Below are positions 1,076-10,996 of a stretch of DNA of 28,827 nucleotides, in pieces. The position numbers and the translations under genes were made by a program. This DNA comes from a virus, in IMG/VR virus record IMGVR_UViG_3300044856_000229, positions 64,001-92,827 of that record; one strand, written 5' to 3'. Position 1 is the stretch's first letter. Each line of letters begins with the position of its first letter. The notes below the pieces were generated by a model, which made no database searches, had not been told where the DNA came from, and saw only the letters and a list, made by a program, of their open reading frames with translations.

Positions 1076-1204
1076 TTACATTTCCTCACTTTCCTTGAAG
1101 ATTTCTTCAATCAACTTTTTAGTTTCTTCTACACCAATGTATAAAGCTGATTTTTCGATTGCATCAAATAAAAGTGTTTTTACTTCCATTTCTTTTTCTG
1201 TCAT
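1076..1204 (-). CDS. small acidic protein, 42 aa (MTEKEMEVKTLLFDAIEKSALYIGVEETKKLIEEIFKESEEM)
   Basis: Unannotated short ORF directly downstream of promoter 1236-1264. RBS AGAGGAGAtaaaaaacATG. Followed by gene 699..989, so the two form an operon. Confidence 0.4.
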   Translation of the reverse strand: MTEKEMEVKTLLFDAIEKSALYIGVEETKKLIEEIFKESEEM

Positions 1205-1235
1205 GTTTTTTATCTCCTCTCTTGACTATGTACTT

Positions 1236-1264
1236 ATTATATCATGGGGGCTGAGGTTTGTCAA
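1236..1264 (-). promoter_or_regulatory. sigmaA-type promoter, leftward (TTGACA-17-TATAAT), -35 inside G5/C5 hairpin
   Basis: Minus strand reads TTGACA (1264..1259), spacer, then TATAAT (1241..1236). Plus-strand GGGGGctgaggtttgtcaaCCCCC is followed by a T-run. Confidence 0.65.
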
Positions 1265-1280
1265 CCCCCATTTTTAATTT

Positions 1281-1589
1281 TTAATGATTAAACCGCAGAT
1301 AATGAGTAAACCATTTTTTACCAAAATTTTCTTCTAACTGTTTTTCCTCTTCTGGATTCGTTTCCATGATTGAGATTTTCATAATTGTATCCCAGTCAAG
1401 AGTTGTAAACCAAGTCCCATCTTTCATACCTTTACTAAAACGGAACGTATCAAGAATAAAATCCATTGTTTCCTGTCGTTTAATTGTTTTCATACATTCT
1501 TCAAGAGAAATAATCTGGCTACCAAAAATTGGTTTAGTTTCACAACCTGTTACCTTCCATCCGCTAATCTTACTTTCAATTTTAATCAT
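1281..1589 (-). CDS. hypothetical protein
   Basis: 102-aa ORF. RBS AAAGAGAGGAAAAAAgATG (a cassette 5'UTR variant). Promoter at 1620-1648. Confidence 0.7.
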   Translation of the reverse strand: MIKIESKISGWKVTGCETKPIFGSQIISLEECMKTIKRQETMDFILDTFRFSKGMKDGTWFTTLDWDTIMKISIMETNPEEEKQLEENFGKKWFTHYLRFNH

Positions 1590-1619
1590 CTTTTTTCCTC
1601 TCTTTCATTTGATATATTT

Positions 1620-1648
1620 ATTATACTACAGGGGATTGAACTTGTCAA
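1620..1648 (-). promoter_or_regulatory. sigmaA-type promoter, leftward (TTGACA-17-TATAAT), -35 embedded in hairpin GGGGATTGAActtgTCAACCCC
   Basis: Minus strand reads TTGACA (1648..1643), spacer, then TATAAT (1625..1620). The hairpin at 1631-1652 is followed by a plus-strand T-run. Family B terminator-promoter element. Confidence 0.7.
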
Positions 1649-1656
1649 CCCCTATT

Positions 1657-1890
1657 TTATAAAATTCCTTCAATCTCGCAACATTTACGGAAAATTTTAA
1701 CACAATCATTCCAAGAGCCATCATCATTTGCATATTCTGCCAGAATATCATCATCCCATCCATCCTCAAGACCATAAGCAAACCATAAGTCCATTACTAC
1801 ATCTTCTCTGATATTTTCTTTAAGAAATGTATCCATCTTTTTGAGTAAATTCTTTCTAGTTTTAATCATCTCATTTCTTGATACTTCCAT
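1657..1890 (-). CDS. hypothetical acidic protein
   Basis: 77-aa ORF. RBS AAGGAAGGGGAAcaaataaATG. Tandem promoters at 1922-1950 and 2087-2115. Confidence 0.65.
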   Translation of the reverse strand: MEVSRNEMIKTRKNLLKKMDTFLKENIREDVVMDLWFAYGLEDGWDDDILAEYANDDGSWNDCVKIFRKCCEIEGIL

Positions 1891-1921
1891 TTATTTGTTC
1901 CCCTTCCTTATCTTTAAATAT

Positions 1922-1950
1922 AGTATACTATAGTCGAGCGGTTTTGTCAA
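1922..1950 (-). promoter_or_regulatory. sigmaA-type promoter, leftward (TTGACA-17-TATACT)
   Basis: Minus strand reads TTGACA (1950..1945), spacer, then TATACT (1927..1922). Flanks are paralogous to the promoter at 8445-8473 (TTGTCAATaTACAAAATAaCCAA). Confidence 0.65.
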
Positions 1951-2007
1951 TATACAAAATAACCAAAAGTAAAGTGTGATTTTGGGATTTTTTGTATAAG
2001 ATACCTA

Positions 2008-2037
2008 TTGACAAATAGTTATTTTATGTGTTATAAT
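2008..2037 (+). promoter_or_regulatory. rightward extended -10 promoter (TTGACA-18-TGtTATAAT) opposing the leftward genes
   Basis: Plus strand has TTGACA at 2008-2013, an 18-nt spacer, TG at -15/-14 and TATAAT at 2032-2037. The -35 sits inside CTATTgacAAATAG. Upstream TTTGTAtAA-N9 mirrors the GTGCA-N9 element of the other three rightward promoters. Confidence 0.55.
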
Positions 2038-2043
2038 TGAAGT

Positions 2044-2133
2044 TTGAGCCTCATGTGCGGGTGAAGCATTCGCCTGCGGCGCACTAATTTTATCACCTTT
2101 TGGAAGGTTTGTCAAGTAGTAAAATTGCACAAA
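2044..2133 (+). ncRNA. candidate short non-coding RNA (about 90-120 nt) from rightward promoter to bidirectional terminator
   Basis: No ORF (ATG TGC GGG TGA). GC-rich imperfect hairpin GUGCGGGUGAAGCAUUCGCCUGCGGCGCAC. Ends at terminator 2134-2165. Partly antisense to the leftward promoter 2087-2115 region. Confidence 0.3.
2087..2115 (-). promoter_or_regulatory. sigmaA-type promoter, leftward (TTGACA-17-TAAAAT), tandem with 1922-1950
   Basis: Minus strand reads TTGACA (2115..2110), spacer, then TAAAAT (2092..2087). No ORF between it and the next promoter. Confidence 0.5.
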
Positions 2134-2165
2134 AAACGCTGAATTAAAATCCAGCGTTTTGTATA
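2134..2165. terminator. bidirectional rho-independent terminator (AACGCTG-9nt-CAGCGTT flanked by A-run and T-run)
   Basis: 7-bp GC-containing stem with U-runs on both strands. Ends gene 2166..2540 (minus) and the rightward sRNA. TTGCACAAAA motif immediately upstream at 2124-2133. Confidence 0.7.
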
Positions 2166-2540
2166 TTATTTTCTCGGCATACTCAGTACAATTTTATATT
2201 TAGTACCATTCAGTTCAAAAAAGAACTCTCTCTCATTGTTAGTCACATCTAAATTTTCCGCCCCCATCTTTTCGACTGATTCTGTCAAAGCTGTGATGAT
2301 AGCTTGCTTTCCTTTGTTCTCTGGTTTTTTCCTTTTGGAAGTATCAAACTTGTAAACAGTTGTTTTTTTCTTGCGGTCTGCCTGTCGTGCCTTTTTAGAT
2401 GCTTTTTCCTGTTCTGGTGTTAATGTGAAAAGCTTTTCCCCCTTGTCTATTCTTTTATCATCTTCTAACATTTGCATTGCTTCTTCTCTGCTAATATCTA
2501 ACAATTTCATGTTACGTTCTATAATTTCATTGTCTGTCAT
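2166..2540 (-). CDS. hypothetical Lys-rich protein
   Basis: 124-aa ORF. RBS AAGAAAGGGtttaataATG. Co-transcribed with 2587..2958, since only a hairpin and no promoter lies between them. Confidence 0.7.
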   Translation of the reverse strand: MTDNEIIERNMKLLDISREEAMQMLEDDKRIDKGEKLFTLTPEQEKASKKARQADRKKKTTVYKFDTSKRKKPENKGKQAIITALTESVEKMGAENLDVTNNEREFFFELNGTKYKIVLSMPRK

Positions 2541-2565
2541 TATTAAACCCTTTCTTTAAATAGTA

Positions 2566-2580
2566 GGGGCTTTTCGCCCC
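2566..2580. terminator. intercistronic hairpin GGGGCttttcGCCCC (attenuator/partial terminator)
   Basis: 5-bp G/C stem with a T-rich plus-strand tail, sitting between the two genes of the operon. Confidence 0.4.
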
Positions 2581-2586
2581 CTTTAA

Positions 2587-2958
2587 TTATTTTGCAAAAA
2601 AGTATGCTTTGCGTTTTTCAACGATTCTATCAACTTTACCTTCACCGCAAAGGGCGGTTACAAGAGAAGTTACACGCTGATTTGAAAGTTCTTTCAAACC
2701 TTCAACTTCTTTCATCAATTCAGAAACGGTAAATCCACTGCCTGTATTTACAAGGTATTCAACAATCTTTTCTTTTAAGCTCTCATTTTCGAGCTGAGTT
2801 GCTGTAGGCTTACGATTTGCAGAAGATTTTTTGTTTACCTGTACAAGCATTTTGTCAAGTTTCTCGATAACTTCTGTATACTTTTCTGCATCAGTTTCTT
2901 TCATAACCTCGATTGCGGTTTCCAGTGCCATAGCGTTTGTCATTTTTTTGTCTGTCAT
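2587..2958 (-). CDS. hypothetical protein, possible winged-helix DNA-binding C-terminus
   Basis: The ORF-track start at 2967 is TTG. The ATG at 2958 has RBS AGGAattgataattATG. C-terminal segment FTVSELMKEV...SNQRVTSLVTALCGEGKVDRIVEKRKAYF resembles a wHTH. Confidence 0.6.
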   Translation of the reverse strand: MTDKKMTNAMALETAIEVMKETDAEKYTEVIEKLDKMLVQVNKKSSANRKPTATQLENESLKEKIVEYLVNTGSGFTVSELMKEVEGLKELSNQRVTSLVTALCGEGKVDRIVEKRKAYFFAK

Positions 2959-3011
2959 AATTATCAATTCCTTTCTTAATAAGAGATTTATTATTTGTTT
3001 TCTATGTTTTT

Positions 3012-3040
3012 ATTATAACACCTGTTGTCTTGTTTGTCAA
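3012..3040 (-). promoter_or_regulatory. sigmaA-type promoter, leftward (TTGACA-17-TATAAT)
   Basis: Minus strand reads TTGACA (3040..3035), spacer, then TATAAT (3017..3012). Context TAACACCTgTTGTCTTGTTTGTCAAGACCTTT is paralogous to the promoter at 9546-9574. Confidence 0.7.
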
Positions 3041-3107
3041 GACCTTTTTTATTTTTCTTTTGGGGGACTTCTCATTGTTTTTCACTTCCTTTCTTTATCT
3101 TGTAATA

Positions 3108-3136
3108 ATAATACCATATTTTTTACATTTTGTCAA
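3108..3136 (-). promoter_or_regulatory. sigmaA-type promoter, leftward (TTGACA-17-TATTAT) with UP-like A/T tract, tandem with 3012-3040
   Basis: Minus strand reads TTGACA (3136..3131), spacer, then TATTAT (3113..3108). Upstream TTTGTCAATGGTTTTTTTAAATTTTTTTCT is a family A element. Confidence 0.55.
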
Positions 3137-3158
3137 TGGTTTTTTTAAATTTTTTTCT

Positions 3159-3881
3159 TTATTTTTCCCACAGTCCAGTTCTCATCTTTTTGTGCTGTCT
3201 ATAACAATAATGACAGATTTCTTTTTCGATTAAAGTATCTTCAAGTCCAGTGTGTTTTTCTACAAAAGTATTATCTTTTGTGATGAATCTATAAAGGATT
3301 TCGGCTGTTACTCTCAGTTGTCCTCTAGTTGTGAGATAATTATTCTCTTCACAAAATCTTCTGTATGATGACATTTTGCATACTACATCACGTGCCATTT
3401 TCATAGTATCGCAGATTTCCAAACCATAAGGAAAGAAATATCTATATTTTGATTTAGTCAACCAACGCTGAGTAGTGTTTAATGTGCCATAGTCAAAACG
3501 CATGTTATGAGCAAAAACCTTTTTTACGTTGTAACGTTCACAACACTCTACAAGCTGTTTTCTGATATTGTAGAAAGATGTTAAAATTCTTTTACCGCTT
3601 TTGATATCTTCCCAGTACATCGGAATTTTCTCTGCATAATATGAGGATTTCATAAGCTCTTTTTCTTCAAGAAAAATGTCAGCGTTTACAAATGACCATG
3701 TTTCAAAAACCTCACCAGTACGTTTGTTGATAACAGCAAAACCGCAATCATAAACCCACATATTAGTTGGAAGCACCTGTTCTAATGATTTGTCTACTGG
3801 ACAAGTTTCTGTATCAATTACAATTGAGTAATCCATTCTTCTGTCAATTTTGTTTGTGTTTTTTCTGTTGATAAATTCCAT
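3159..3881 (-). CDS. DnaQ-like DEDDh 3'-5' exonuclease
   Basis: Exo I IVIDTETC, Exo II FAHNMRFDYGTL and Exo III HTGLEDTLIEKE motifs in the canonical order and spacing. RBS GAGAGAGAGGtaaacaaaaATG. Confidence 0.75.
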   Translation of the reverse strand: MEFINRKNTNKIDRRMDYSIVIDTETCPVDKSLEQVLPTNMWVYDCGFAVINKRTGEVFETWSFVNADIFLEEKELMKSSYYAEKIPMYWEDIKSGKRILTSFYNIRKQLVECCERYNVKKVFAHNMRFDYGTLNTTQRWLTKSKYRYFFPYGLEICDTMKMARDVVCKMSSYRRFCEENNYLTTRGQLRVTAEILYRFITKDNTFVEKHTGLEDTLIEKEICHYCYRQHKKMRTGLWEK

Positions 3882-3914
3882 TTTTGTTTACCTCTCTCTC
3901 ATTTCTATGTCTTT

Positions 3915-3943
3915 ATTATACCATCAGTGAAGAGGTTTGTCAA
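3915..3943 (-). promoter_or_regulatory. sigmaA-type promoter, leftward (TTGACA-17-TATAAT)
   Basis: Minus strand reads TTGACA (3943..3938), spacer, then TATAAT (3920..3915). Confidence 0.7.
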
Positions 3944-4009
3944 GAACTTTTTTAACTTTTTTATAAGTTTTTTATTTGCTTTCTTGTCTTTCTCTTCCTT
4001 ACAAGTATT

Positions 4010-4038
4010 ATAATACCACAAGTCATTGAGGATTGCAA
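4010..4038 (-). promoter_or_regulatory. candidate leftward extended -10 promoter (TTGCAA-17-TGgTATTAT), tandem upstream of 3915-3943
   Basis: Minus strand reads TTGCAAtcctcaatgacttgTGGTATTAT. Resembles the extended -10 promoter at 9920-9948. Confidence 0.35.
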
Positions 4039-4106
4039 GGATTATTTTGAAAAAAATTGCACAAAATGGGATAAATATTTGCGGAAAAATTTGTGCATTT
4101 TTCCTC

Positions 4107-4136
4107 TTGACAAAGTGTGGCGACCTGTGGTATAAT
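4107..4136 (+). promoter_or_regulatory. rightward extended -10 promoter (TTGACA-18-TGgTATAAT) with upstream GTGCA-N9 element
   Basis: TTGACA at 4107-4112, GGCGACCTGTGG spacer, TATAAT at 4131-4136. Core TTTTCCTCTTGACAAA...GGCGACCTGTGGTATAATT is nearly identical to the copy at 8532-8561. Confidence 0.6.
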
Positions 4137-4142
4137 TTTTCG

Positions 4143-4204
4143 GGCAGCAGTCGAGCCTAACTGTCTGTACGGTCATTAAAAAAAGAAAGCGTTTAAACGC
4201 TTTC
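4143..4204 (+). ncRNA. candidate short non-coding RNA (about 60 nt) ending in bidirectional terminator
   Basis: No ORF. Starts GGGCAGCAG, like the 8568 copy which starts GGGACAGCAGG. Contains AGCCUAACUGUCUG, identical to a 14-nt stretch at 8703-8716 inside leftward small gene 8603..8749. The terminator hairpin is shared with the 3' end of leftward small gene 4193..4315. Confidence 0.3.
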
Positions 4205-4210
4205 TTTTAC
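4177..4210. terminator. bidirectional terminator: perfect 20-bp palindrome GAAAGCGTTTAAACGCTTTC flanked by A7 and T4
   Basis: Exact palindrome at 4185-4204 with U-runs on both strands. Overlaps the stop codon of 4193..4315. Confidence 0.7.
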
Positions 4211-4315
4211 ATCTACCATTTTAATTCTGTGCGGTCTGTCTTTTGCCTCTGCATAGCTTGTGGTTTCCTTTACAATTTTTTTACCTTCCATAATCTGATA
4301 AACAACTTTTCTCAT
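4193..4315 (-). CDS. small protein, 40 aa (MRKVVYQIMEGKKIVKETTSYAEAKDRPHRIKMVDVKESV)
   Basis: Unannotated ORF. RBS AAGAGAGGtattaagaATG. Its stop lies inside the bidirectional terminator. Upstream is a degenerate hairpin element GGGTTAAGCCC and a TATAAT at 4344-4349. Confidence 0.4.
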   Translation of the reverse strand: MRKVVYQIMEGKKIVKETTSYAEAKDRPHRIKMVDVKESV

Positions 4316-4377
4316 TCTTAATACCTCTCTTTTCTATGATTTAATTATACTATAGGGTTAAGCCCTATCTTTATTTT

Positions 4378-4635
4378 TTAATCTTTTTCAATAACTCTAA
4401 AGTCCATGTTTAATGCAGATAAGACTTCTTCTGGATTAAGACTGTGCCCTTCACGAATAATGTTTAAATTTGTTCTGTCAATCAATCGAATCCAATCTTC
4501 TGACTTTTCAACAATAATACAAGGTTCATTAGATAAACAAGGACAAAAACCTTTACAATTAGCTTTTCCCTCACCGTGACGTCCTGCATAACAACCCTCG
4601 AGTTCCGCACATCTATAACATTTGTTTTCTACCAT
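4378..4635 (-). CDS. Cys-rich small protein (7 Cys in first 40 aa; probable metal-binding)
   Basis: 85-aa ORF. Cassette RBS AAAGAGAGGAAAgaaaaATG. Pattern CxxC..C...C..C.C..C. Confidence 0.7.
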   Translation of the reverse strand: MVENKCYRCAELEGCYAGRHGEGKANCKGFCPCLSNEPCIIVEKSEDWIRLIDRTNLNIIREGHSLNPEEVLSALNMDFRVIEKD

Positions 4636-4666
4636 TTTTCTTTCCTCTCTTTCATTTGATACATTA

Positions 4667-4695
4667 AGTATACATTACTTTTGGTTATTTGTCAA
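4667..4695 (-). promoter_or_regulatory. sigmaA-type promoter, leftward (TTGACA-17-TATACT) with conserved 5'UTR cassette
   Basis: Minus strand reads TTGACA (4695..4690), spacer, then TATACT (4672..4667). The 29-bp block CCTCTCTTTCATTTGATACATTAAGTATA at 4644-4672 is identical at 6101-6130 and 8241-8270. Confidence 0.7.
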
Positions 4696-4710
4696 TAAGT
4701 AAAAATGTAT

Positions 4711-4742
4711 AAAAAATGAGCTAAAAATCAGCTTATTTTTTA
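4711..4742. terminator. bidirectional terminator (TGAGCT-7nt-AGCTTA between A6 and T6)
   Basis: Short stem with U-runs on both strands. Follows the stop of gene 4746..5093. Confidence 0.5.
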
Positions 4743-4745
4743 CGT

Positions 4746-5093
4746 CTATTCTTTAATAAAAACTGTTATGTTACTAATCCTCTGAGCGGTACTTGCTACG
4801 TCCTCTTTTATTGAATAACCATTTTCTTCTAATAATTTTGTAAATATTGTAAAATTAAGGAAAACATTTTCGTCTTGAACTCTGTCGTATAAATAAAAAT
4901 AATCTTCTTTGCCCCATCTTTCAAAGAATTTTATTCTAAAGCTTGTTACTAAAGGACGACCCTCTTCTGCGTATCCATAAAGTTTAGAAATTATTCTTTC
5001 ATTTATAAATTTTTCTGTATTAGAAGTAGCTTGTATAAAAGCTTCTATACAAATTTTCCGTTTCATTTCTAAAATTTCTTTTGCTTTCATCAC
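4746..5093 (-). CDS. hypothetical protein
   Basis: 115-aa ORF. RBS AAAGAGAGAGtaaataattgtgATG. No promoter between it and upstream gene 5139..5618, only the 15-bp palindrome. Confidence 0.65.
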   Translation of the reverse strand: MMKAKEILEMKRKICIEAFIQATSNTEKFINERIISKLYGYAEEGRPLVTSFRIKFFERWGKEDYFYLYDRVQDENVFLNFTIFTKLLEENGYSIKEDVASTAQRISNITVFIKE

Positions 5094-5125
5094 AATTATT
5101 TACTCTCTCTTTCTTTATTAATATT

Positions 5126-5158
5126 TCTGGGGGAACTCTCAGAAAAATTTTCTGAGAG
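5126..5158. repeat. perfect 15-bp-arm palindrome GGAACTCTCAGAAAA-a-TTTTCTGAGAGTTCC spanning stop codon of NT5C paralog 1
   Basis: The arms are exact reverse complements. The left arm encodes the last residues (GTLRKF) and the TGA stop lies in the right arm. Possible terminator, RNase III site or operator. Confidence 0.6.
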
Positions 5159-5618
5159 TTCCAATAATGTCGTTTACATCAAAGCTGTTCTCGCCCCACT
5201 CTTCTCTATTACGTTTTTCATCATCAAAGAGCCAACCGTTACAATCAACAACTGTGCTTTTTGGTGTGCCATAGTTTACAATTTTAACCTCATCCCATTC
5301 AACACTAGGAAGATGTTTTTCGAGCCATGCAAGTTTTACGCTTGTTACTGCCGTGTTATAAGCTGTCGAACCATATTTGCTGAGCCAACTTACAATACCG
5401 ATTCTATAACCGTTTGCCTGTAATTTATGTAATACTCTTGCAAATACTGAGAAGTTAAACAGCGGTCTTGCTACTGCATAAGGTGTGGTATCCTCATTTT
5501 CCAGATAGTCCAACCAGTTTTCTACACCATAGAAGTTAGCAAGTGTGCCGTCCATGTCAAAGTAAATAGTTCCTTTTGTTTCCATCATTCCTTTAATTGT
5601 ATTCATCATAATCATCAA
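5139..5618 (-). CDS. HAD-superfamily 5'(3')-deoxyribonucleotidase (NT5C-like), paralog 1
   Basis: HAD motif I FDMDGTLANF. WLEKHLP...VKIVNYGTPKSTVV...GWLFDDE matches the NT5C signature W.EK.FG...IVLT.DK...D.LIDD. About 150 aa. The true start may be the internal ATG at 5588 (METKGTIYFDMDGT), by analogy with paralog 2. Confidence 0.7.
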   Translation of the reverse strand: MMIMMNTIKGMMETKGTIYFDMDGTLANFYGVENWLDYLENEDTTPYAVARPLFNFSVFARVLHKLQANGYRIGIVSWLSKYGSTAYNTAVTSVKLAWLEKHLPSVEWDEVKIVNYGTPKSTVVDCNGWLFDDEKRNREEWGENSFDVNDIIGTLRKFF

Positions 5619-6744: not shown

Positions 6745-6779
6745 CCCTCTTCCTCACTTTTATCTCTTTTGTTAATTAT

Positions 6780-6808
6780 AATATATCACATGGGGTTGAA
6801 TTTGTCAA
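6780..6808 (-). promoter_or_regulatory. sigmaA-type promoter, leftward (TTGACA-17-TATATT) in hairpin GGGGTTGAAtttgTCAACCCC, tandem with 6716-6744
   Basis: Perfect 8-bp-stem hairpin at 6792-6811, followed by a plus-strand T-run. Confidence 0.55.
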
Positions 6809-6824
6809 CCCCAATTTTTATTTT

Positions 6825-7172
6825 TTATCTTTCTTTTAATCCATGTATTATAATTGTATGACCGCAATTATCACAAGTATAATAATATTCATCATCACTA
6901 TTTCTATGATGTACTGCATTTACGAACTTATAAGGCTCATTACATTCTGTGCAATATCCGTTGTTCCATGCTTCATCATCATCTTTGTTTTGTAATGTAA
7001 CCAACCCACCAACACCGCAACCAATAGCAACCGCAAGTATAATTCCTACTATCCATTTGACTATTGGTTTGCTGTCCTCTGCTATAATATTTACAATAAA
7101 TATTGCCATGTAACTGCCGACTGTCAAACTCATAAGTATTGATGTTAAAATAAATTCTGCCGTGTAATTCAT
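6825..7172 (-). CDS. membrane protein (2 TM) with C-terminal zinc-ribbon (CTEC...CDNC)
   Basis: The ATG at 7172 has RBS AAAGAGAGGtaaataaaATG. The ORF-track extension to 7232 is the translation of the promoter hairpin and is rejected. Confidence 0.7.
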   Translation of the reverse strand: MNYTAEFILTSILMSLTVGSYMAIFIVNIIAEDSKPIVKWIVGIILAVAIGCGVGGLVTLQNKDDDEAWNNGYCTECNEPYKFVNAVHHRNSDDEYYYTCDNCGHTIIIHGLKER

Positions 7173-7203
7173 TTTATTTACCTCTCTTTCTTTAACTGTC
7201 TTT

Positions 7204-7232
7204 ATTATAACATAAGAGGTTGAACTTGTCAA
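7204..7232 (-). promoter_or_regulatory. sigmaA-type promoter, leftward (TTGACA-17-TATAAT) in hairpin GAGGTTGAActtgTCAACTCC
   Basis: Minus strand reads TTGACA (7232..7227), spacer, then TATAAT (7209..7204). Confidence 0.7.
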
Positions 7233-7236
7233 CTCC

Positions 7237-7533
7237 TTATCTAAAAAATTCTTTTGCTGTCTCTCTGTATTTTTTTGGAAGGCTTGCGATAAATTTTTCT
7301 TTATCTTCTTCTGACAGTGTTCTTCTTAACTGTCTTGTTGTTACTGAGAATGGATTTAGATGATATTTAAGTATTAATGGAAACGCTCTAATGAATACGA
7401 GTGTTTTAAACGCTTCTATAATTTTGCCAAGGATTTCAACAGGTATCCAAAACCATTTCCATTCATTATAAAAACTTAAATAGCTAAGTGCATACATTAC
7501 AATAACAATTACTACTACTAATGATACTCTCAT
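7237..7533 (-). CDS. small membrane protein
   Basis: 98-aa ORF. RBS AAAGAGAGGtaaatgaaATG. Hydrophobic N-terminus. Confidence 0.7.
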   Translation of the reverse strand: MRVSLVVVIVIVMYALSYLSFYNEWKWFWIPVEILGKIIEAFKTLVFIRAFPLILKYHLNPFSVTTRQLRRTLSEEDKEKFIASLPKKYRETAKEFFR

Positions 7534-7565
7534 TTCATTTACCTCTCTTTCTTTTCTATGTTTTC

Positions 7566-7594
7566 ATTATAACATAAAGGGTTGAACTTGTCAA
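7566..7594 (-). promoter_or_regulatory. sigmaA-type promoter, leftward (TTGACA-17-TATAAT) in perfect hairpin GGGTTGAActtgTCAACCC
   Basis: Minus strand reads TTGACA (7594..7589), spacer, then TATAAT (7571..7566). On the minus strand the hairpin is followed by UUUAUGUUAU and on the plus strand by TTTATTTT, so it can act as a terminator in both directions. Confidence 0.7.
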
Positions 7595-7603
7595 CCCTTT
7601 ATT

Positions 7604-7750
7604 TTAAATTAATTGTAAAAGATAACTTCCATCATTGATAGCAAGAATTCTCACAATTTCATCTTTATTCTGAGAAAGAATCTCACCTGTTGAACAGTCA
7701 ATTAATGCGGTTTCATAACCTTTTTCAATGTAAAGCCCTAAAATCATCAT
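7604..7750 (-). CDS. small protein, 48 aa (MMILGLYIEKGYETALIDCSTGEILSQNKDEIVRILAINDGSYLLQLI)
   Basis: Unannotated ORF. RBS AAGAAAGAGGTGttttttATG. Confidence 0.4.
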   Translation of the reverse strand: MMILGLYIEKGYETALIDCSTGEILSQNKDEIVRILAINDGSYLLQLI

Positions 7751-7766
7751 AAAAAACACCTCTTTC

Positions 7767-7913
7767 TTAAACAAGCTTTAACAAGTTACCGTCTTTATCA
7801 AAACAAAAACCCACAGTTTCATCTGATACAACCTCAAAATAGTCTGAGTCATTTACTGGAATCCATAATCCAGCATTTCTAAAAATTTCTAATAATTTTT
7901 CTTTATCATTCAT
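7767..7913 (-). CDS. small protein, 48 aa (MNDKEKLLEIFRNAGLWIPVNDSDYFEVVSDETVGFCFDKDGNLLKLV)
   Basis: Unannotated ORF. RBS AGAAAGAGAGGtaaagaaaATG. Downstream of promoter 7940-7968. Confidence 0.45.
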   Translation of the reverse strand: MNDKEKLLEIFRNAGLWIPVNDSDYFEVVSDETVGFCFDKDGNLLKLV

Positions 7914-7939
7914 TTTCTTTACCTCTCTTTCTAATACCT

Positions 7940-7968
7940 ATTATACCAGTCCTTGACTTATTTGTCAA
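7940..7968 (-). promoter_or_regulatory. sigmaA-type promoter, leftward (TTGACA-17-TATAAT) in inverted repeat CCTTGACttatttGTCAAGG
   Basis: Minus strand reads TTGACA (7968..7963), spacer, then TATAAT (7945..7940). Confidence 0.7.
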
Positions 7969-8239
7969 GGACTATTTTTTTAATTTCATCATCATAGATG
8001 TTATTGTCAGTGTGCATTGTATCCATGATAAGTTTTACATTATCACCAATTTCAAGGTCTGTGCCGTCCTCAAAATAATACTCCCAGTCATTTCCAGTAG
8101 CATCTGTGAAGGTTGCAAGATTGTTATTCACTTCTACAACCTCTGCGGTTCTGGTGTATGTACTCTCATAAGCTCCCACACCACCAATTGCTGTGATACC
8201 CACCATAATTGCTAATACTGTTTTAATCATCTTCATCAT
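7958..8239 (-). CDS. small secreted/membrane-anchored protein (N-terminal signal-like segment)
   Basis: 93-aa ORF. The cassette RBS abuts the first ATG, so the real start may be the ATG at 8230 (MIKTVLAIMVG). Hydrophobic N-terminus followed by an acidic domain. Confidence 0.65.
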   Translation of the reverse strand: MMKMIKTVLAIMVGITAIGGVGAYESTYTRTAEVVEVNNNLATFTDATGNDWEYYFEDGTDLEIGDNVKLIMDTMHTDNNIYDDEIKKIVLDK

Positions 8240-8264
8240 TTCCTCTCTTTCATTTGATACATTA

Positions 8265-8293
8265 AGTATAACACCAAGTTACTCATTTGTCAA
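8265..8293 (-). promoter_or_regulatory. sigmaA-type promoter, leftward (TTGACA-17-TATACT) with conserved 5'UTR cassette
   Basis: Minus strand reads TTGACA (8293..8288), spacer, then TATACT (8270..8265). The -35 lies inside the 3' coding end of small ORF 8279..8413. Confidence 0.7.
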
Positions 8294-8413
8294 GTCTTTT
8301 TTCTCATATTTTTCTAATTCTTCTTCTATTGCATCATACTCATCGTTAAATAATTCACAAGCATTGATTACACACTGCATGATAAATGTTATCTGTTCTT
8401 TAGTAAATTCCAT
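8279..8413 (-). CDS. small acidic protein, 44 aa (MEFTKEQITFIMQCVINACELFNDEYDAIEEELEKYEKKDLTNE)
   Basis: Unannotated ORF. RBS AAAGGGGAAcaaaaacATG. Promoter at 8445-8473. Confidence 0.4.
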   Translation of the reverse strand: MEFTKEQITFIMQCVINACELFNDEYDAIEEELEKYEKKDLTNE

Positions 8414-8444
8414 GTTTTTGTTCCCCTTTCTTTATCTTGATTAT

Positions 8445-8473
8445 AGTATACTACAAGCCAATAGGTTTGTCAA
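8445..8473 (-). promoter_or_regulatory. sigmaA-type promoter, leftward (TTGACA-17-TATACT)
   Basis: Minus strand reads TTGACA (8473..8468), spacer, then TATACT (8450..8445). Paralogous to the promoter at 1922-1950. Confidence 0.65.
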
Positions 8474-8531
8474 TGTACAAAATAGCCAATTTCGGGAAGC
8501 AAATTATTTAATATTTTGTGCAATTTTCCTC

Positions 8532-8561
8532 TTGACAAACTGCGGCGACCTGTGGTATAAT
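8532..8561 (+). promoter_or_regulatory. rightward extended -10 promoter (TTGACA-18-TGgTATAAT) with upstream GTGCA-N9 element
   Basis: TTGACA at 8532-8537 and TATAAT at 8556-8561. Near-identical core to the copy at 4107-4136. GTGCA ends 9 nt before the -35. Confidence 0.6.
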
Positions 8562-8567
8562 TAGTTG

Positions 8568-8608
8568 GGACAGCAGGCGACCATAGCGGTTGCCCATTTC
8601 TTTTAATA
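8568..8608 (+). ncRNA. candidate short non-coding RNA (about 40 nt) antisense to 3' end of leftward gene 8603..8749
   Basis: Starts GGGACAGCAGG. Hairpin GGCGACCatagcGGTTGCC followed by CATTTCTTTT. Overlaps the stop codon region of the convergent small gene. Confidence 0.3.
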
Positions 8609-8749
8609 CTCTATAATTGTATGCATCAATCGCATCAACTGTTCATTGGTAAACTCTCCCGACTCACAATCTTCACAAAACATAACAGTTAGTGGACTCT
8701 CAAAGCCTAACTGTCTGATTACATTATCCATCATTTCTTTTACTGTCAT
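8603..8749 (-). CDS. small protein, 48 aa (MTVKEMMDNVIRQLGFESPLTVMFCEDCESGEFTNEQLMRLMHTIIEY)
   Basis: Unannotated ORF. RBS AGGAGGtcatgacaATG. An alternative start 2 codons upstream is too close to the RBS. Promoter at 8781-8809. Confidence 0.45.
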   Translation of the reverse strand: MTVKEMMDNVIRQLGFESPLTVMFCEDCESGEFTNEQLMRLMHTIIEY

Positions 8750-8780
8750 TGTCATGACCTCCTTCTCTTAACTTGATTAT

Positions 8781-8809
8781 AGTATACTACAATCAGATTG
8801 ATTTGTCAA
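8781..8809 (-). promoter_or_regulatory. sigmaA-type promoter, leftward (TTGACA-17-TATACT)
   Basis: Minus strand reads TTGACA (8809..8804), spacer, then TATACT (8786..8781). Confidence 0.65.
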
Positions 8810-9045
8810 TAGGAAAATAAAAAATATTTTAAAAATATTTTTGCTTTCCCGCATTAATCCTTTACTACTGGAATGCTGTAGTGTTGCGTTACTTTAACGC
8901 TTTACCACTTTAGTGTAGTGAAGTCTTGCCCTCATTATCTTTGTTATTCTATTAACATTCCTGTTAATTTTTTAACAATCTGCGTCCCACGAACCGCAGA
9001 ACGTAGATAAAGAGAGAACGTTTGTTCTCTCCTCTCTTTATCTCT
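8810..9045. other. 235-bp non-coding block with tandem AAAATATTTT palindromes, multiple short G/C hairpins and inverted repeat TGTTAA-N4-TTAACA
   Basis: No ORF with an RBS. Partly paralogous to 9840-9960 (ACTACTGG(G)AAT(G/C)C..GT and the TGTTAATTTTTTAACAA element). Candidate structured RNA or regulatory region. Confidence 0.35.
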
Positions 9046-9513
9046 TTACACATGATACTGTATTAACTCTTTAAGCACGTCCATCATAACCACAGCATCA
9101 ACACTTGCACCTTGCCACTCTTCTCTATTCCTTGCTTCATCATCGAATAGTATTCCACCACAAGGCACTGCCGCACGTTTATTCTGTCCATACTCTGTTA
9201 CAATAATCTCATTCCAATTAACACTAGGAAGATGCTTCTTTAACCATTTCCTTTTGGCTTCTTCTATTGCTTGCACATAGTCAAGTGTTGCGTCCTTACT
9301 TGCCCATGAGATAACACCTAACTTATAACCTCTTCTCTGTAGTGCATTAATACGCCTTGCAAATAGACTCATAGATACAAGCGGTCTTGCTATCTCATAA
9401 GGCACTATACTACCATGCACCAGATAGTCAAGCCAACCTTCTACACTGTAAAGGTCTGCAATAGTTCCATCTAAATCGAACCACAACCATTTATTATCTA
9501 ACATACTAATCAC
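9046..9513 (-). CDS. HAD-superfamily 5'(3')-deoxyribonucleotidase (NT5C-like), paralog 2
   Basis: FDLDGTIADL (HAD motif I) and WLKKHLP...IIVTEYGQNKRAAV...GILFDDE. About 45% identical to paralog 1 at 5139..5618. The ORF-track start at 9513 is GTG. The ATG at 9504 (MLDNKWLWFDLDGT) is likely the real start. Confidence 0.7.
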   Translation of the reverse strand: MISMLDNKWLWFDLDGTIADLYSVEGWLDYLVHGSIVPYEIARPLVSMSLFARRINALQRRGYKLGVISWASKDATLDYVQAIEEAKRKWLKKHLPSVNWNEIIVTEYGQNKRAAVPCGGILFDDEARNREEWQGASVDAVVMMDVLKELIQYHV

Positions 9514-9545
9514 TCTTTCTTTCTTTTATCTTTATCTTTATATTT

Positions 9546-9574
9546 ATTATAACACCTTTGTGCTTGCTTGTCAA
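9546..9574 (-). promoter_or_regulatory. sigmaA-type promoter, leftward (TTGACA-17-TATAAT)
   Basis: Minus strand reads TTGACA (9574..9569), spacer, then TATAAT (9551..9546). Paralogous to the promoter at 3012-3040. Confidence 0.7.
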
Positions 9575-9635
9575 GACCTTTCTTTGTGTCTTTGTCTTGC
9601 CTCTTGGCTCAAGGGTTAGCCTGAGCTAACCCATC

Positions 9636-9755
9636 CTATGCCAGATAAGTCTCGAGGATAGAGCCACCTACTCTCTTGGCAGTTAGTTCAGCCAAACTTT
9701 TGCTACTTGTCAATAAAACGAATTTTCCCTCTCTATCAATAACCTCATACTTCAT
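9636..9755 (-). CDS. small protein, 39 aa (MKYEVIDREGKFVLLTSSKSLAELTAKRVGGSILETYLA)
   Basis: Unannotated ORF. RBS AAAGAGAGGAAcaaaaacATG. Followed by hairpin GGGTTAGCtcagGCTAACCC. Promoter at 9792-9820. Confidence 0.45.
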   Translation of the reverse strand: MKYEVIDREGKFVLLTSSKSLAELTAKRVGGSILETYLA

Positions 9756-9791
9756 GTTTTTGTTCCTCTCTTTCTCTCTTTCTTTATACAT

Positions 9792-9820
9792 AGTATAGCA
9801 TACAAGTAGCTACTTGTCAA
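9792..9820 (-). promoter_or_regulatory. sigmaA-type promoter, leftward (TTGACA-17-TATACT)
   Basis: Minus strand reads TTGACA (9820..9815), spacer, then TATACT (9797..9792). Confidence 0.65.
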
Positions 9821-9919
9821 GAGGTTTTTATAAATTTTCTTTGTTAATTTTTTAACAAGCGAACTACTGGGAATCGCAGTTTTCGTCACCAACTTACGCT
9901 CCATGAGAGCACCAAATCT

Positions 9920-9948
9920 ATTATACCACAGATGTGCGGTGATGTCAA
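9920..9948 (-). promoter_or_regulatory. leftward extended -10 promoter (TTGACA-17-TGgTATAAT), tandem upstream of 9792-9820
   Basis: Minus strand reads cATTGACAtcaccgcacatctgTGGTATAATag. Resembles the rightward promoters through CTGTGGTATAAT. Confidence 0.55.
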
Positions 9949-9957
9949 TGGGTAACA

Positions 9958-10056
9958 TTGCACAAAGATTGACTACTGATTTTGTGCAATGTGCTGAAAA
10001 TTATTTTTGTGCAAAGTGACGAAATTTGGGAAAAAAATTAAAATATTTTTGTGCAA
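9958..10056. promoter_or_regulatory. array of TTTTGTGCAA motifs (direct copies at 9980-9989, 10005-10014, 10047-10056; inverted copy at 9958-9967) upstream of rightward promoter
   Basis: Exact 10-mer repeats. The last copy is positioned GTGCA-N9-TTGACA, as at the three other rightward promoters. Candidate activator/repressor site or UP-element array. Confidence 0.45.
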
Positions 10057-10064
10057 CTTTTTGC

Positions 10065-10094
10065 TTGACAAATTGTTGTGTCTCGTGTTATAAT
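10065..10094 (+). promoter_or_regulatory. rightward extended -10 promoter (TTGACA-18-TGtTATAAT)
   Basis: TTGACA at 10065-10070 and TATAAT at 10089-10094, with TG at -15/-14. Confidence 0.55.
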
Positions 10095-10100
10095 GGAAAT

Positions 10101-10170
10101 TCGGGCCTGCGCTTGCGTCTACGGCCCGAGGATTTGACGAGAGCGTCATTACTTTTTATGTATTTTTCCC
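10101..10170 (+). ncRNA. candidate short non-coding RNA (GC-rich hairpin GGGCC-15nt-GGCCC, then GACGagaGCGTC + U-tract)
   Basis: No ORF. Structured 5' end followed by a U-rich tail. Lies in the 360-bp non-coding gap 9959-10320. Confidence 0.25.
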
Positions 10171-10320
10171 AGATAAATCTGAAACAAAAGTGAACTTGAG
10201 CCTTGCTATTGGGGGGTATATTTCGTGAAAAAATTTTTTTGATTTTTGAAAATCGTTTTGCTCTGGACAAAACTCTTCTCAAACCCATTTTGAAATTCGA
10301 GTTACGAATAATTTCAGTAT

Positions 10321-10629
10321 TTAATCAAGATTCAAATCTTCTTCTGCAGGGCTTGGATTAGTTGCCCCTTCAATTTGCTTTAAATCCTCAACGTCCTTAT
10401 CCAATTCATCAATATGATCTTTAACCCAATTAGTCAGCTTCAAATATCCAGCATCATTAATTTCAGTAGAGAATCCTCTGAAATCAGTTCGTGCAGGAAA
10501 TCCCGCAATAACATTACCATCATCATCTTGTTCTACAAGTAAACACCAACCAAAAGCATGTAAAAATAAATTAGCATACCACAGTAATCCGCTATCTTTA
10601 AATTCTTTCCAATCTTTAATTTCTATCAT
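10321..10629 (-). CDS. hypothetical acidic protein
   Basis: 102-aa ORF. Strong RBS AAAGGAGataactATG. Preceded by terminator 10648-10693 with no own consensus promoter. Confidence 0.7.
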   Translation of the reverse strand: MIEIKDWKEFKDSGLLWYANLFLHAFGWCLLVEQDDDGNVIAGFPARTDFRGFSTEINDAGYLKLTNWVKDHIDELDKDVEDLKQIEGATNPSPAEEDLNLD

Positions 10630-10647
10630 AGTTATCTCCTTTATAGG

Positions 10648-10693
10648 AAAAGGAGAAACGCATTTTGCATCTCTCCTTTTCGTTTTATTTTTT
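10648..10693. terminator. terminator hairpin AAAAGGAGA-15nt-TCTCCTTTT followed by T-run (plus strand); likely leaky for leftward transcription
   Basis: 9-bp stem with nested GCAttttGC in the loop, then CGTTTTATTTTTT. Confidence 0.5.
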
Positions 10694-10780
10694 ATATATA
10701 GTTAAAACATTTCCTTCGTTTCCGTTATCAGTAATTTCTTAATAAAATTAATACAGCGAGTGGAACAATAATTCCAACAA

Positions 10781-10996
10781 TCATTCTTTATTCTCCTTTA
10801 TTTCAAACCCCAATAATAATTTAAACATTTTTCTTTGTAACCAATTAAATCTTTTATTACAAGGTAAAATAAAAAACTCTTTTCCATCATCATCTACCAA
10901 TACAATTTTATATGGTGCGGGTTTAGGCTGCAATAAATTACAACTGTATGACGAATTCAGTGTCTCCTGCGGATTTACCTTTACTTCTTTTTGCAT
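10781..10996 (-). CDS. hypothetical protein (about 71 aa)
   Basis: The ORF-track start at 11002 is TTG. The ATG at 10996 is the first ATG. Overlaps the 3' end of candidate ORF 10938..11096 in another frame. Its stop overlaps ATGA with the 18-aa hydrophobic micro-ORF 10728..10784 (MIVGIIVPLAVLILLRNY, RBS GGAGAAtaaagaATG). Confidence 0.5.
   Translation of the reverse strand: MQKEVKVNPQETLNSSYSCNLLQPKPAPYKIVLVDDDGKEFFILPCNKRFNWLQRKMFKLLLGFEIKENKE

What the first reader, a model, noticed from the sequence alone, without database searches (positions are those of the whole stretch)
1076..10784. Hidden layer of small ORFs under 60 aa with strong RBS, missed by the 60-aa ORF cutoff
At least seven ORFs of 39-48 aa sit exactly where a promoter-cassette gene is expected and have AGGAGG-like sites at ideal spacing: 1076-1204, 4193-4315, 7604-7750, 7767-7913, 8279-8413, 8603-8749 and 9636-9755. 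A further ORF at 10728-10784 encodes an 18-aa single-helix hydrophobic peptide and is translationally coupled (ATGA) to the upstream gene. Small early phage proteins are often host-factor inhibitors, and a hydrophobic micro-peptide could be toxin-like or a membrane modulator.
Basis: seen in the sequence. Interest (0 to 1): 0.5.

Follow-up and report, generated by a model that had tools for sequence, protein, structure and literature searches.

The report
Real small early phage genes
The eight short reading frames are real, conserved protein genes in the early region of a large human-gut phage; most are already in public catalogues as hypothetical proteins, and only the 18-residue hydrophobic peptide is unannotated.

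Summary
Observation confirmed. All eight ORFs lie on the minus strand, start with ATG, and have a Shine-Dalgarno site 5-9 nt upstream. Five have their own near-consensus sigma-70-type promoter; the other three are downstream genes of operons. Chance does not explain them: the inter-gene gaps hold 8 such ORFs, against 0.7 in shuffles and 0 on the opposite strand. Related metagenomic phage contigs keep every frame, start, stop and ribosome site. For the seven 39-48 aa ORFs, pN/pS is 0.03-0.28 in the called frame only. The 18-aa peptide has eight DNA variants encoding 17-20 aa. Its indels are all in frame, its replacements stay within I/L/V/A/F, and G, P and the C-terminal LLRNY never change. No Pfam or PHROG family matched, the structure models were weak, and there was no fold match. 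Function is inferred only. The soluble proteins (five of seven acidic) probably bind other macromolecules early in infection. The micro-peptide is probably a membrane helix. This is a new member of a known kind, of modest interest. In passing: a repeated family of strong promoters driving short GC-rich hairpin RNAs, often antisense to the early genes.

The parts
1076..1204 (-). 42-aa acidic (pI 4.4) protein gene; own promoter at 1264-1236
   Evidence: ATG plus AGAGGAGA at spacing 8. 86-98% aa identity in L001-L003. pN/pS 0.19 in frame against 0.63 and 2.58 off frame, P=0.0012. Exact sequence is public, in a cluster of 127 members.
4193..4315 (-). 40-aa basic (pI 9.7) protein gene. It has a -10 only and is probably co-transcribed with the 85-aa gene 4378-4635. 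It ends in a bidirectional terminator at about 4182-4207.
   Evidence: 78-88% identity in L001-L003, where it is 37 or 40 aa. pN/pS 0.17, P=2e-4. Public cluster of 50 members.
7767..7913 (-). 48-aa acidic protein gene, first gene of a two-gene operon; promoter at 7968-7940
   Evidence: Diverged to 35-51% identity in L002, L003 and L008-L013, yet the ORF is kept. Six more 50-55 aa family representatives were found in 1.84 billion proteins. AF2 pLDDT 63.
7604..7750 (-). 48-aa (or 47-aa from ATG 7747) acidic protein gene, second gene of the operon. It starts 16 nt after the stop of 7767-7913 and is followed by a terminator/promoter hairpin.
   Evidence: AGAGGTGT SD. 90-98% identity in L001-L003 and 47% in L008-L013, always adjacent to the 7767 homologue. 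pN/pS 0.16, P=6e-5.
8279..8413 (-). 44-aa very acidic (net -9) protein gene; promoter at 8473-8445
   Evidence: 95-100% identity in L002, L003, L011 and L012; absent from L001. pN/pS 0.03, P=7e-8.
8603..8749 (-). 48-aa acidic protein gene with invariant CxxC; promoter at 8809-8781
   Evidence: AAGGAGGT at spacing 7. 42 public clusters at 79% identity or more, mostly called as 48 aa. pN/pS 0.05, P=5e-8. AF2 three-helix model with pLDDT 74 and no PDB fold match.
9636..9755 (-). 39-aa protein gene; promoter at 9820-9792; hairpin after the stop
   Evidence: 84-92% identity in L001-L003. pN/pS 0.25, P=0.003. This exact 39-aa form is not in the public collection.
10728..10784 (-). 18-aa hydrophobic micro-peptide MIVGIIVPLAVLILLRNY. 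Its ATG overlaps the TGA of the upstream gene, and it is the last gene of the operon that starts at promoter 13414-13386.
   Evidence: AAAGGAGA at spacing 7. Eight DNA variants and six peptides of 17-20 aa were found in 14 locus records (about 10 distinct contigs; L014-L016 re-fetch the L001-L003 contigs). Indels are 3 and 9 nt. G, P and LLRNY are invariant. Coupling is kept as ATGA or TAATG. The pairwise synonymous excess is weak, P=0.065.
10781..10996 (-). 71-aa gene to which the micro-peptide is translationally coupled
   Evidence: dN/dS 0.08 in its unique part.
10938..11096 (-). It overlaps 10781-10996 by 59 nt in another frame.
   Evidence: TAAGGAGA SD. 80-92% identity in L001-L003. pN/pS 0.22, P=0.0035. 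Public cluster of 119 members.
1000..1074 (-). Candidate 24-aa hydrophobic ORF MCIFWTLLFSNFAVWIVAIIEMFM inside an 82-nt insertion; coding status unproven
   Evidence: GAGGA-type SD at spacing 9. Absent from L001-L003. Identical in 9 contigs of the same lineage, so there is no variation to test.

Best explanation
The window's first 13.4 kb is the minus-strand early region of a roughly 150-185 kb SPbeta/E3-like phage found in human-gut metagenomes. The region is built from short transcription units. Each has a near-consensus sigma-70/sigma-A promoter, a strong Shine-Dalgarno site, one or a few small genes, and a hairpin. The eight ORFs, plus a ninth of 52 aa, are ordinary protein-coding genes of this region. 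About a quarter of its roughly 34 genes are shorter than 60 aa.

Shown: the ORFs exist, exceed chance, and are conserved with frame-specific purifying selection. Gene callers already predict six of the seven 39-48 aa ORFs, and the extra 52-aa ORF, in public data.

Inferred: host RNA polymerase transcribes them straight after infection. Proteins of 39-52 aa are too small to be enzymes, so they most likely act by binding another macromolecule stoichiometrically. Five of the seven soluble ones are acidic (pI 4.1-4.4), as expected for binders or mimics aimed at nucleic-acid-binding host or defence proteins. The 7767/7604 pair is inherited together and probably works as a pair.

Inferred for the 17-20 aa peptide: it is made by translational coupling to the 71-aa gene upstream and inserts into the membrane as one short helix. 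The invariant G4, P8 and C-terminal LLRNY would form its specific interface. It would then either modulate a membrane protein or perturb the membrane.
For: Anatomy. Promoters: 16 perfect 12/12 and 14 further 11/12 sigma-70 sites in 13.5 kb. Chance control: 8 observed against 0.74 in shuffles and 0 on the other strand. Conservation of frame, start, stop and SD in L001-L003. NG86 dN/dS 0.02-0.25 in unsaturated pairs. pN/pS is lowest in the called frame, and the other frames are full of stops; P ranges from 0.024 to 5e-8 for the seven ORFs. Micro-peptide variants. Public predictions. The gene pair is kept at 47-51% identity in a distant clade. Cassette gain, loss and replacement among relatives fits accessory early genes. 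Charge data. Phage identity: YonF-like terminase, YonG_N/YonD_N hits, contigs up to 184 kb. Analogy to the SPO1 host-takeover genes, which are small, early and carry strong promoters and RBS: PMC6873191.
Against: There are no expression data of any kind, and early timing is inferred from promoter type alone. No function is supported by homology or by fold. All relatives are metagenomic and close, so each selection test rests on 3-4 sequences. For the micro-peptide the pairwise synonymous excess is not significant on its own (P=0.065). First-position changes in NTN codons stay hydrophobic by the code itself, so 'conservative replacements' is weaker evidence than it looks. The host is unknown: no prophage copy was found, and the MAG assignments are inconsistent.
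Confidence: 0.85

Rival explanations
1. The ORFs are chance open frames in AT-rich, purine-rich spacer or leader sequence. The conservation would then reflect regulatory DNA or RNA rather than protein.
For: The region is dense in conserved non-coding elements: promoters, hairpins and short RNAs. One cassette (3136-3049) is 90-98% conserved at the DNA level yet holds only an 8-codon ORF whose frame is not kept.
Against: The count is 8 against 0.74 expected. Substitutions concentrate at third codon positions. pN/pS is 0.03-0.28 only in the called frame, and the other two frames carry 2-10 stops. Indels are in frame. By contrast, the 66-aa ORF 10088-10288 is broken by stops and frameshifts in relatives. 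That shows the test can discriminate.
Confidence: 0.02
2. The small proteins serve the phage's own programme rather than inhibiting host factors. Possible roles are transcription timing, replication control, or antitoxin/regulator pairs.
For: The same region carries an AbrB/MazE-like gene, a winged-helix-like gene and repeated TTGTGCAA boxes at a subset of promoters. Something phage-encoded may bind those boxes. In SPbeta, repeated operator elements in early promoters are bound by a phage repressor (PMC10516654). In SPO1, gp45 counteracts gp46 within one operon (PMC6873191). That is a precedent for the 7767/7604 pair.
Against: None of the small proteins matches a DNA-binding family. Most are acidic, which does not suit DNA binding. 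Cassette turnover between close relatives is more typical of accessory host- or defence-directed genes.
Confidence: 0.3
3. The 18-codon ORF works through its translation rather than its product. It could be a coupling or re-initiation device that keeps ribosomes on the operon's 3' end, or a leader that controls the terminator and the next gene.
For: It is coupled by ATGA. A terminator hairpin (about 10677-10645) lies some 50 nt downstream, directly followed by the RBS of gene 10321-10629. The pairwise selection signal is weak.
Against: The peptide sequence itself is constrained. The C-terminal LLRNY, G and P are invariant despite synonymous changes (TTA/CTG, TAC/TAT, CCA/CCG). Only one second-position change occurs in 15 sense codons, and both indels are in frame. 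The ORF is kept in L001 although the downstream gene is replaced there; homology ends at window 10637. About 50 nt separate the ORF's stop from the terminator, so a ribosome on the ORF cannot occlude it.
Confidence: 0.15

Closest known systems
[quoted passage not shown]
   Same: A cluster of mostly small early genes arranged in many short operons. Each has host-type promoters and ribosome-binding sites typical of highly expressed genes. Several products shut off host processes, and some act in pairs within an operon (PMC6873191).
   Different: There is no sequence relationship: no PHROG or Pfam hit. This phage has an SPbeta/E3-type terminase and is not a Herelleviridae member. Location in a terminal redundancy, early timing and toxicity are all untested here.
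IbsC/IbsA (19 aa) and other membrane-active type I toxins
   Same: Same size class and composition as the 17-20 aa peptide: a single hydrophobic helix whose C-terminal residues matter. IbsC can be cut to 15 residues and stay active, and it depolarises the membrane (PMC8309996).
   Different: No antisense-RNA partner or own promoter was found at 10650-10800. The peptide is the coupled last gene of a nine-gene phage operon. There is no sequence homology. Toxicity is untested.
Catalogued phage and microbiome small-protein families
   Same: These are the kind of 50-aa-or-less, lineage-restricted, unannotated families reported in large numbers from phage and microbiome surveys (PMC11323111; PMC11364881, listed). 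Six of the seven ORFs are already in such collections.
   Different: The 17-20 aa peptide is shorter than the minimum these look-ups accept (20 aa). The 24-aa ORF was not found in the collection.
SPbeta early promoters with the SPBRE operator
   Same: A large SPbeta-like phage whose early operons carry a short repeated element at a subset of promoters (PMC10516654).
   Different: The element here (TTGTGCAA, 8-9 nt upstream of -35) differs in sequence from SPBRE, which reads AAATACAAAAAATATGTAT upstream of aimR, yopM, yopV, yonX, yonT, yorE and yonP. Its binding protein is unknown.

Membership tests
Protein-coding gene (general test for each small ORF) | Open frame with start, stop and ribosome-binding site kept in relatives | tested here: met
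   all eight ORFs plus 10938-11096. Not met for 1000-1074 (absent from relatives) or for the 8-codon ORF 3049-3075 (frameshift in L002).
Protein-coding gene (general test for each small ORF) | Frame-specific purifying selection | tested here: met
   pN/pS 0.03-0.28 in frame and P 0.024 to 5e-8 for the seven 39-48 aa ORFs. For the 18-aa ORF the pairwise test is inconclusive (P=0.065), but in-frame indels and invariant residues support coding.
SPO1-type host-takeover gene module | Small genes in short operons with strong host-type promoters and strong RBS | tested here: met
SPO1-type host-takeover gene module | Sequence homology to SPO1 gp37-gp60 or other described takeover proteins | tested here: not met
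   No PHROG hit below E=0.1 and no Pfam hit above threshold.
SPO1-type host-takeover gene module | Early expression and shut-off of, or toxicity to, host processes | not testable with these tools
   Needs infection time-course transcriptomics and expression in the (unknown) host.
Type I toxin-antitoxin (IbsC/Fst-like), for 10728-10784 | Short hydrophobic peptide with one predicted membrane helix | tested here: met
   GRAVY 2.12, with 15 consecutive non-polar residues and a single basic residue near the C-terminus.
Type I toxin-antitoxin (IbsC/Fst-like), for 10728-10784 | Antisense or adjacent small-RNA antitoxin gene | tested here: not met
   The listed part of the promoter scan shows no plus-strand promoter-like site near 10650-10800; the 30 weakest sites were not shown. 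The nearest antisense unit starts at 10065.
Type I toxin-antitoxin (IbsC/Fst-like), for 10728-10784 | Independent toxin transcript with its own promoter | tested here: not met
   The ATG overlaps the stop of the upstream gene, and the ORF is the last cistron of the operon from 13414-13386.
Leader peptide / attenuation uORF, for 10728-10784 | ORF linked to, and co-inherited with, the regulated downstream gene | tested here: not met
   The downstream gene is replaced in L001 while the ORF is kept. About 50 nt separate the stop from the terminator.
RHS/YD ('Tc toxin') repeat, for 7767-7913 (name given to a cluster member in NCBI nr) | Match to the RHS_repeat profile; tandem repeats | tested here: not met
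   No Pfam hit for the 48-aa protein at E<=1. The profile search hits RHS-repeat proteins only through one roughly 18-residue hairpin-like motif. It is a single copy.

The most novel reading that the evidence does not exclude
The 17-20 aa peptide (consensus M-I-(x)-G-I-I-V-P-L-A-V-L-I-L-L-R-N-Y) is a phage effector in its own right. It would be made early by coupling to the 71-aa protein and would act in the host membrane, either as an IbsC-like depolariser or as a specific modulator of a membrane protein. That would place it among the shortest conserved phage-encoded proteins with a defined role, in a size class that no annotation pipeline reports. A second, independent hydrophobic mini-gene (24 aa, 1000-1074) inserted with its own ribosome site in one sub-lineage would suggest that such micro-genes are gained repeatedly.
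Probability: 0.25. Interest if true: 0.55.

Novelty: new member of a known kind. Interest (0 to 1): 0.3.

Why it matters
The result confirms that about a quarter of the genes in this phage's early region are shorter than 60 aa. It also shows that a length cutoff fails in both directions. It drops nine real genes and keeps at least one spurious ORF (10088-10288, shown to be broken in relatives). A second ORF above the cutoff, 9752-9958, is judged spurious because it overlaps promoters. The families are confined to one widespread clade of large gut phages and have no known function, so they are candidates for host-takeover or anti-defence screens. The conserved 17-20 aa membrane peptide is a concrete, testable example of a coding unit below the reach of standard annotation.

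Tried and rejected
1. DNA search of the early region against 50,697 phage records found no near match. Only the structural genes hit, at 66-70%.
2. PHROGs and Pfam on all small proteins gave nothing usable. The Mst1_SARAH hit for 10938-11096 is below the family cutoff.
3. Paralogy among the small proteins (7604/7767, 4193/9636, 1076/8279) was rejected. Best z-score was 3.6 over 55 pairs, with shuffles reaching the score.
4. AF2 models: 8603 had pLDDT 74 and no PDB match with E<1. 7767 had pLDDT 63, too poor to search.
5. The exhaustive profile search for 7767 found only six more small relatives, plus spurious hairpin hits in RHS-repeat proteins.
6. A wider search for the micro-peptide's neighbourhood found only the same clade. 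L017 and L025 are unrelated. No analogous micro-ORF occurs in distant relatives L004-L008.
7. The 24-aa ORF's DNA was not found in IMG/VR. The nine contigs that carry it are identical, so no test was possible.
8. The 8-codon ORF at 3049-3075 was rejected as coding because L002 has a frameshift.
9. The 66-aa ORF 10088-10288 was rejected as coding.
10. A type I TA reading of 4193 and 8603 with their convergent short RNAs was not pursued as a specific link. In the distant clade the antisense unit sits after a different gene, and both proteins are hydrophilic.
11. The TTGTGCAA box is not SPbeta's SPBRE.
12. Rfam gave no hit, even at E<=1. No tRNAs were found.
13. Host search: no prophage copy was found. 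Terminase relatives sit in MAGs of inconsistent taxonomy, which are probably mis-binned phage contigs.


Full report
**1. Context**

Base composition and ORF layout split the window in two. Positions 1-13,400 are coded on the minus strand. Positions 13,472-28,827 are coded on the plus strand and hold structural and packaging genes.

- The 576-aa plus-strand protein is a YonF-type large terminase. It is 49% identical to those of Enterococcus phages EF1, H1 and VRE9 and Geobacillus virus E3, and 36% identical to that of Brevibacillus phage Sundance.
- Relatives carry YonG_N and YonD_N domains.
- Exact copies of the window's proteins occur on metagenomic contigs of 92-184 kb from many human-gut samples.
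- So the window comes from a large SPbeta/E3-like phage that is common in gut metagenomes.
- No cultured phage matches the early region at the DNA level.
- No prophage copy was found in 185,579 representative genomes. Terminase relatives sit in MAGs of inconsistent taxonomy. The host is therefore unknown.

**2. The observation**

All eight ORFs lie on the minus strand. Each has an ATG, a stop codon and a Shine-Dalgarno-like site, with duplex energy of -6.3 to -11.6 kcal/mol at spacing 5-9 nt.

The region is unusually rich in promoters. It holds 16 perfect TTGACA-N17/18-TATAAT sites and 14 more that match 11 of 12 positions, in 13.5 kb.

| ORF | Transcription |
|---|---|
| 1076, 7767, 8279, 8603, 9636 | Own promoter directly upstream |
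| 7604 | Second cistron of the 7767 operon |
| 4193 | Only a -10; probably follows the 85-aa gene 4378-4635 |
| 10728 | Last cistron of a coupled operon that starts at 13414-13386 |

The upstream genes of the 10728 operon include an AbrB/MazE-like protein, DUF7352 and a Thg1-like protein.

A control shows the pattern is not chance:

- The 4,446 nt of minus-strand gaps hold 8 ATG+SD ORFs of 18-59 aa.
- The opposite strand of the same gaps holds none.
- Dinucleotide shuffles give 0.74 +/- 0.78, with a maximum of 3 in 200.

**3. Are they genes?**

I anchored on the NT5C-like gene 9046-9507 and fetched three close relatives (L001-L003) and four distant ones.

- Every claimed ORF is present in the close relatives at 78-100% amino-acid identity. 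Start, stop and SD site are preserved.
- The alternative ATG at 8755 is lost in two relatives, which confirms 8749 as the start.
- Nei-Gojobori dN/dS is 0.02-0.25 in unsaturated pairs, and differences concentrate at third codon positions.
- Taking the most divergent usable pair for each ORF, pN/pS is 0.03-0.28 in the called frame. It is 0.6 or higher in the other two frames, which also contain 2-10 stops.
- The excess of synonymous changes gives P from 0.024 to 5e-8 for the seven 39-48 aa ORFs.
- ORF 7767 has diverged to 35-51% identity in some relatives yet stays open.
- The 7767 homologue remains next to the 7604 homologue in a more distant clade, L008-L013.
- As a negative control, the 66-aa ORF 10088-10288 passes a 60-aa cutoff but is broken by stops and frameshifts in all three relatives.

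**4. The micro-peptide**

Metagenome and virus scans with the upstream 71-aa gene returned further loci. Together with L001-L003 that makes 14 locus records, from about 10 distinct contigs.

| Feature of the micro-ORF in these loci | Finding |
|---|---|
| DNA versions | 8 |
| Distinct peptides | 6, of 17-20 aa |
| Indels | Two, of 3 and 9 nt, both in frame |
| Stop codon | Changes between TGA and TAA at the same position |
| Invariant residues | G, P, three Leu and the C-terminal R-N-Y, across synonymous changes |
| Replacements | Confined to I/L/V/A/F |
| Second-position changes | One in 15 sense codons |
| Coupling to upstream gene | Kept as ATGA or TAATG |
| SD site | AAGGAG, invariant |

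- The upstream gene is itself under strong constraint, with dN/dS 0.08 in its unique part.
- The pairwise synonymous excess for the 18-codon ORF alone is not significant (P=0.065). My confidence rests on the combined evidence.
- The ORF is retained in L001 even though the gene downstream is replaced there. This argues against a leader-peptide role.
- No antisense promoter lies next to it, and it has no promoter of its own. It therefore fails the defining features of a type I toxin locus, although it resembles IbsC in size and composition (PMC8309996).

**5. How hidden are they?**

- Exact sequences of six of the seven 39-48 aa ORFs, and of the extra 52-aa ORF, are already in public protein collections. 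They are labelled 'hypothetical protein' and sit in clusters of 19-127 members.
- The 8603 family has 42 clusters at 90% identity, mostly called as 48 aa.
- The 18-aa peptide is below the minimum length these collections accept.
- The 24-aa ORF was not found.

**6. What do they do?**

Homology and structure prediction gave no answer:

- There were no usable PHROG or Pfam matches and no paralogy among the small proteins.
- A profile search of 1.84 billion representatives found only six further 50-55 aa relatives of 7767. It also hit RHS-repeat proteins through a single YD-like hairpin motif. That motif explains the 'Tc toxin repeat' name given to one cluster member in NCBI nr.
- AlphaFold gave a three-helix model for 8603 with pLDDT 74 and no PDB match, and an unreliable model for 7767.

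What can be said is this:

- Five of the seven are acidic, with pI 4.1-4.4 and net charge -4 to -9.
- All are too small to be enzymes.
- The cassettes are gained, lost or swapped between close relatives.
- By analogy with the SPO1 host-takeover genes (PMC6873191) and with phage small proteins generally (PMC11323111), the most likely mode of action is stoichiometric binding of host or defence macromolecules early in infection. A phage-internal regulatory role is the main rival.

This part is inference, not result.

**7. Additional small ORFs**

- ORF 10938-11096 (52 aa, pI 10.3) is conserved and overlaps the 71-aa gene by 59 nt. Synonymous variation is reduced in the overlap.
- ORF 1000-1074 (24 aa, hydrophobic) lies in an 82-nt insertion that brings its own downstream SD for the next gene. 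It is absent from L001-L003 and invariant in the nine contigs that carry it, so it cannot be tested.
- The cassette at 3136-3049 holds only an 8-codon ORF whose frame is not kept.

**8. Seen in passing**

Several gaps that lack ORFs hold consensus promoters pointing the other way, on the plus strand at 2008, 4107, 8532 and 10065.

- Most are preceded by a TTGTGCAA box and followed by a GC-rich hairpin that starts at about the predicted transcript start. Three end at a terminator 45-75 nt later.
- The same architecture recurs in every relative examined. In 27 copies the stems differ in sequence but stay complementary, and nine copies use G-U pairs.
- Some copies form convergent promoter pairs about 49 bp apart around the hairpin.
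- Rfam has nothing similar.
- The box is not SPbeta's SPBRE.
- I did not establish what these units do.

**9. Verdict**

The functional reading is plausible but untested. The kind of thing is well known, and the specific families and the micro-peptide are new members of it.

Noticed in passing
window + strand: promoters 4107-4136, 8532-8561, 10065-10094 (and 2008-2037); predicted RNAs about 4143-4210, 8568-8604, 10101-10158; also L001-L010: A repeated family of consensus sigma-70 promoters, usually with a TTGTGCAA/TTTGTACAA box 8-9 nt upstream of -35. They point against the early genes and drive short RNAs that start with a GC-rich hairpin and often end at a terminator. In 27 copies across the relatives the stems differ but stay complementary, and nine copies use G-U pairs. 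There is no Rfam match even at E<=1. Function is unknown; possibilities are a cis-antisense RNA, an operon insulator or a primer.
   Followed up: partly
window 2008-2115 (both strands); L001 about 15912; L007 about 13107: Face-to-face convergent promoter pairs. Two near-consensus promoters lie about 49 bp apart and flank one GC-rich hairpin, so the two short transcripts would be fully complementary.
   Followed up: partly
window 9958-10056, and 2125, 4057, 6457, 8516: Exact TTGTGCAA occurs 9 times in the window, 8 of them in early intergenic gaps. Four are clustered between the divergent promoters at 9948 (-) and 10065 (+). This looks like an operator or activator site for a subset of early promoters. 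It is not the SPbeta SPBRE sequence.
   Followed up: partly
window minus strand about 7600-7566, 7238-7204, 6815-6780, 6160-6125, 1655-1620, 1270-1236: In many cassettes the -35 TTGACA sits inside a hairpin (for example aaagggTTGACAagttcaaccctttatgtTATAAT). The terminator-like stem of one unit and the promoter of the next therefore share the same bases.
   Followed up: no
window 1000-1074 (-): An 82-nt insertion found only in this sub-lineage. It encodes a 24-aa hydrophobic ORF (MCIFWTLLFSNFAVWIVAIIEMFM) that uses the SD of the old gene junction, and it brings a new GAGGTGA SD for the next gene. It is identical in 9 contigs from different samples.
   Followed up: yes
window 10938-10996 (-): The 52-aa gene and the 71-aa gene overlap by 59 nt in different frames. 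Both frames stay open in all relatives, including a shared 12-nt insertion, and synonymous variation drops in the overlap (pS 0.12 against 0.39).
   Followed up: partly
window 10088-10288 (-) and 9752-9958 (-): Two ORFs above the 60-aa cutoff (66 and 68 aa) appear not to be genes. The first is broken by stops and frameshifts in L001-L003. The second runs across two promoters and a leader; this is my judgement and was not tested in relatives.
   Followed up: partly
window 3049-3136 (-): An 'empty' cassette: promoter (3136-3108), SD and an 8-codon ORF (MRSPPKEK), followed at once by the next promoter. The DNA is 90-98% conserved, but a 1-nt deletion in L002 shifts the frame. It is a vestigial gene or a tandem promoter.
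   Followed up: yes
window 11627-12484 (-); 9046-9513 (-) and 5139-5618 (-): The early region encodes a Thg1-like tRNA-His guanylyltransferase family protein (Pfam E=2.6e-31) and two paralogous genes, of which 9046-9513 matches NT5C-type 5'-nucleotidase. These are unusual cargo next to the small genes.
   Followed up: no
window 7604-7913 (-); L008 11672-12061: The two 48-aa genes 7767 and 7604 are inherited as an adjacent pair even in a clade where each is only 47-51% identical. This suggests a two-component module.
   Followed up: partly
window 8830-9000 and 9841-9920 (-): Two non-coding stretches share the AT-rich hairpin TTGTTAAAAAATTAACA (8962-8978 and 9841-9859). The second follows a boxed promoter (9948-9920), whose roughly 90-nt leader starting AGAYTTGRTG is conserved in L001-L003 and in its first 10 nt in L007.
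   Followed up: no
L037-L054 (genome contigs): Close terminase relatives (62-80% identity) lie on contigs binned into MAGs labelled Lachnospiraceae, Erysipelotrichaceae, Tenericutes, Bacteroidales, Treponema and others. Several are 148-175 kb contigs. These are most likely phage genomes mis-binned into MAGs, so they say nothing about the host.
   Followed up: no
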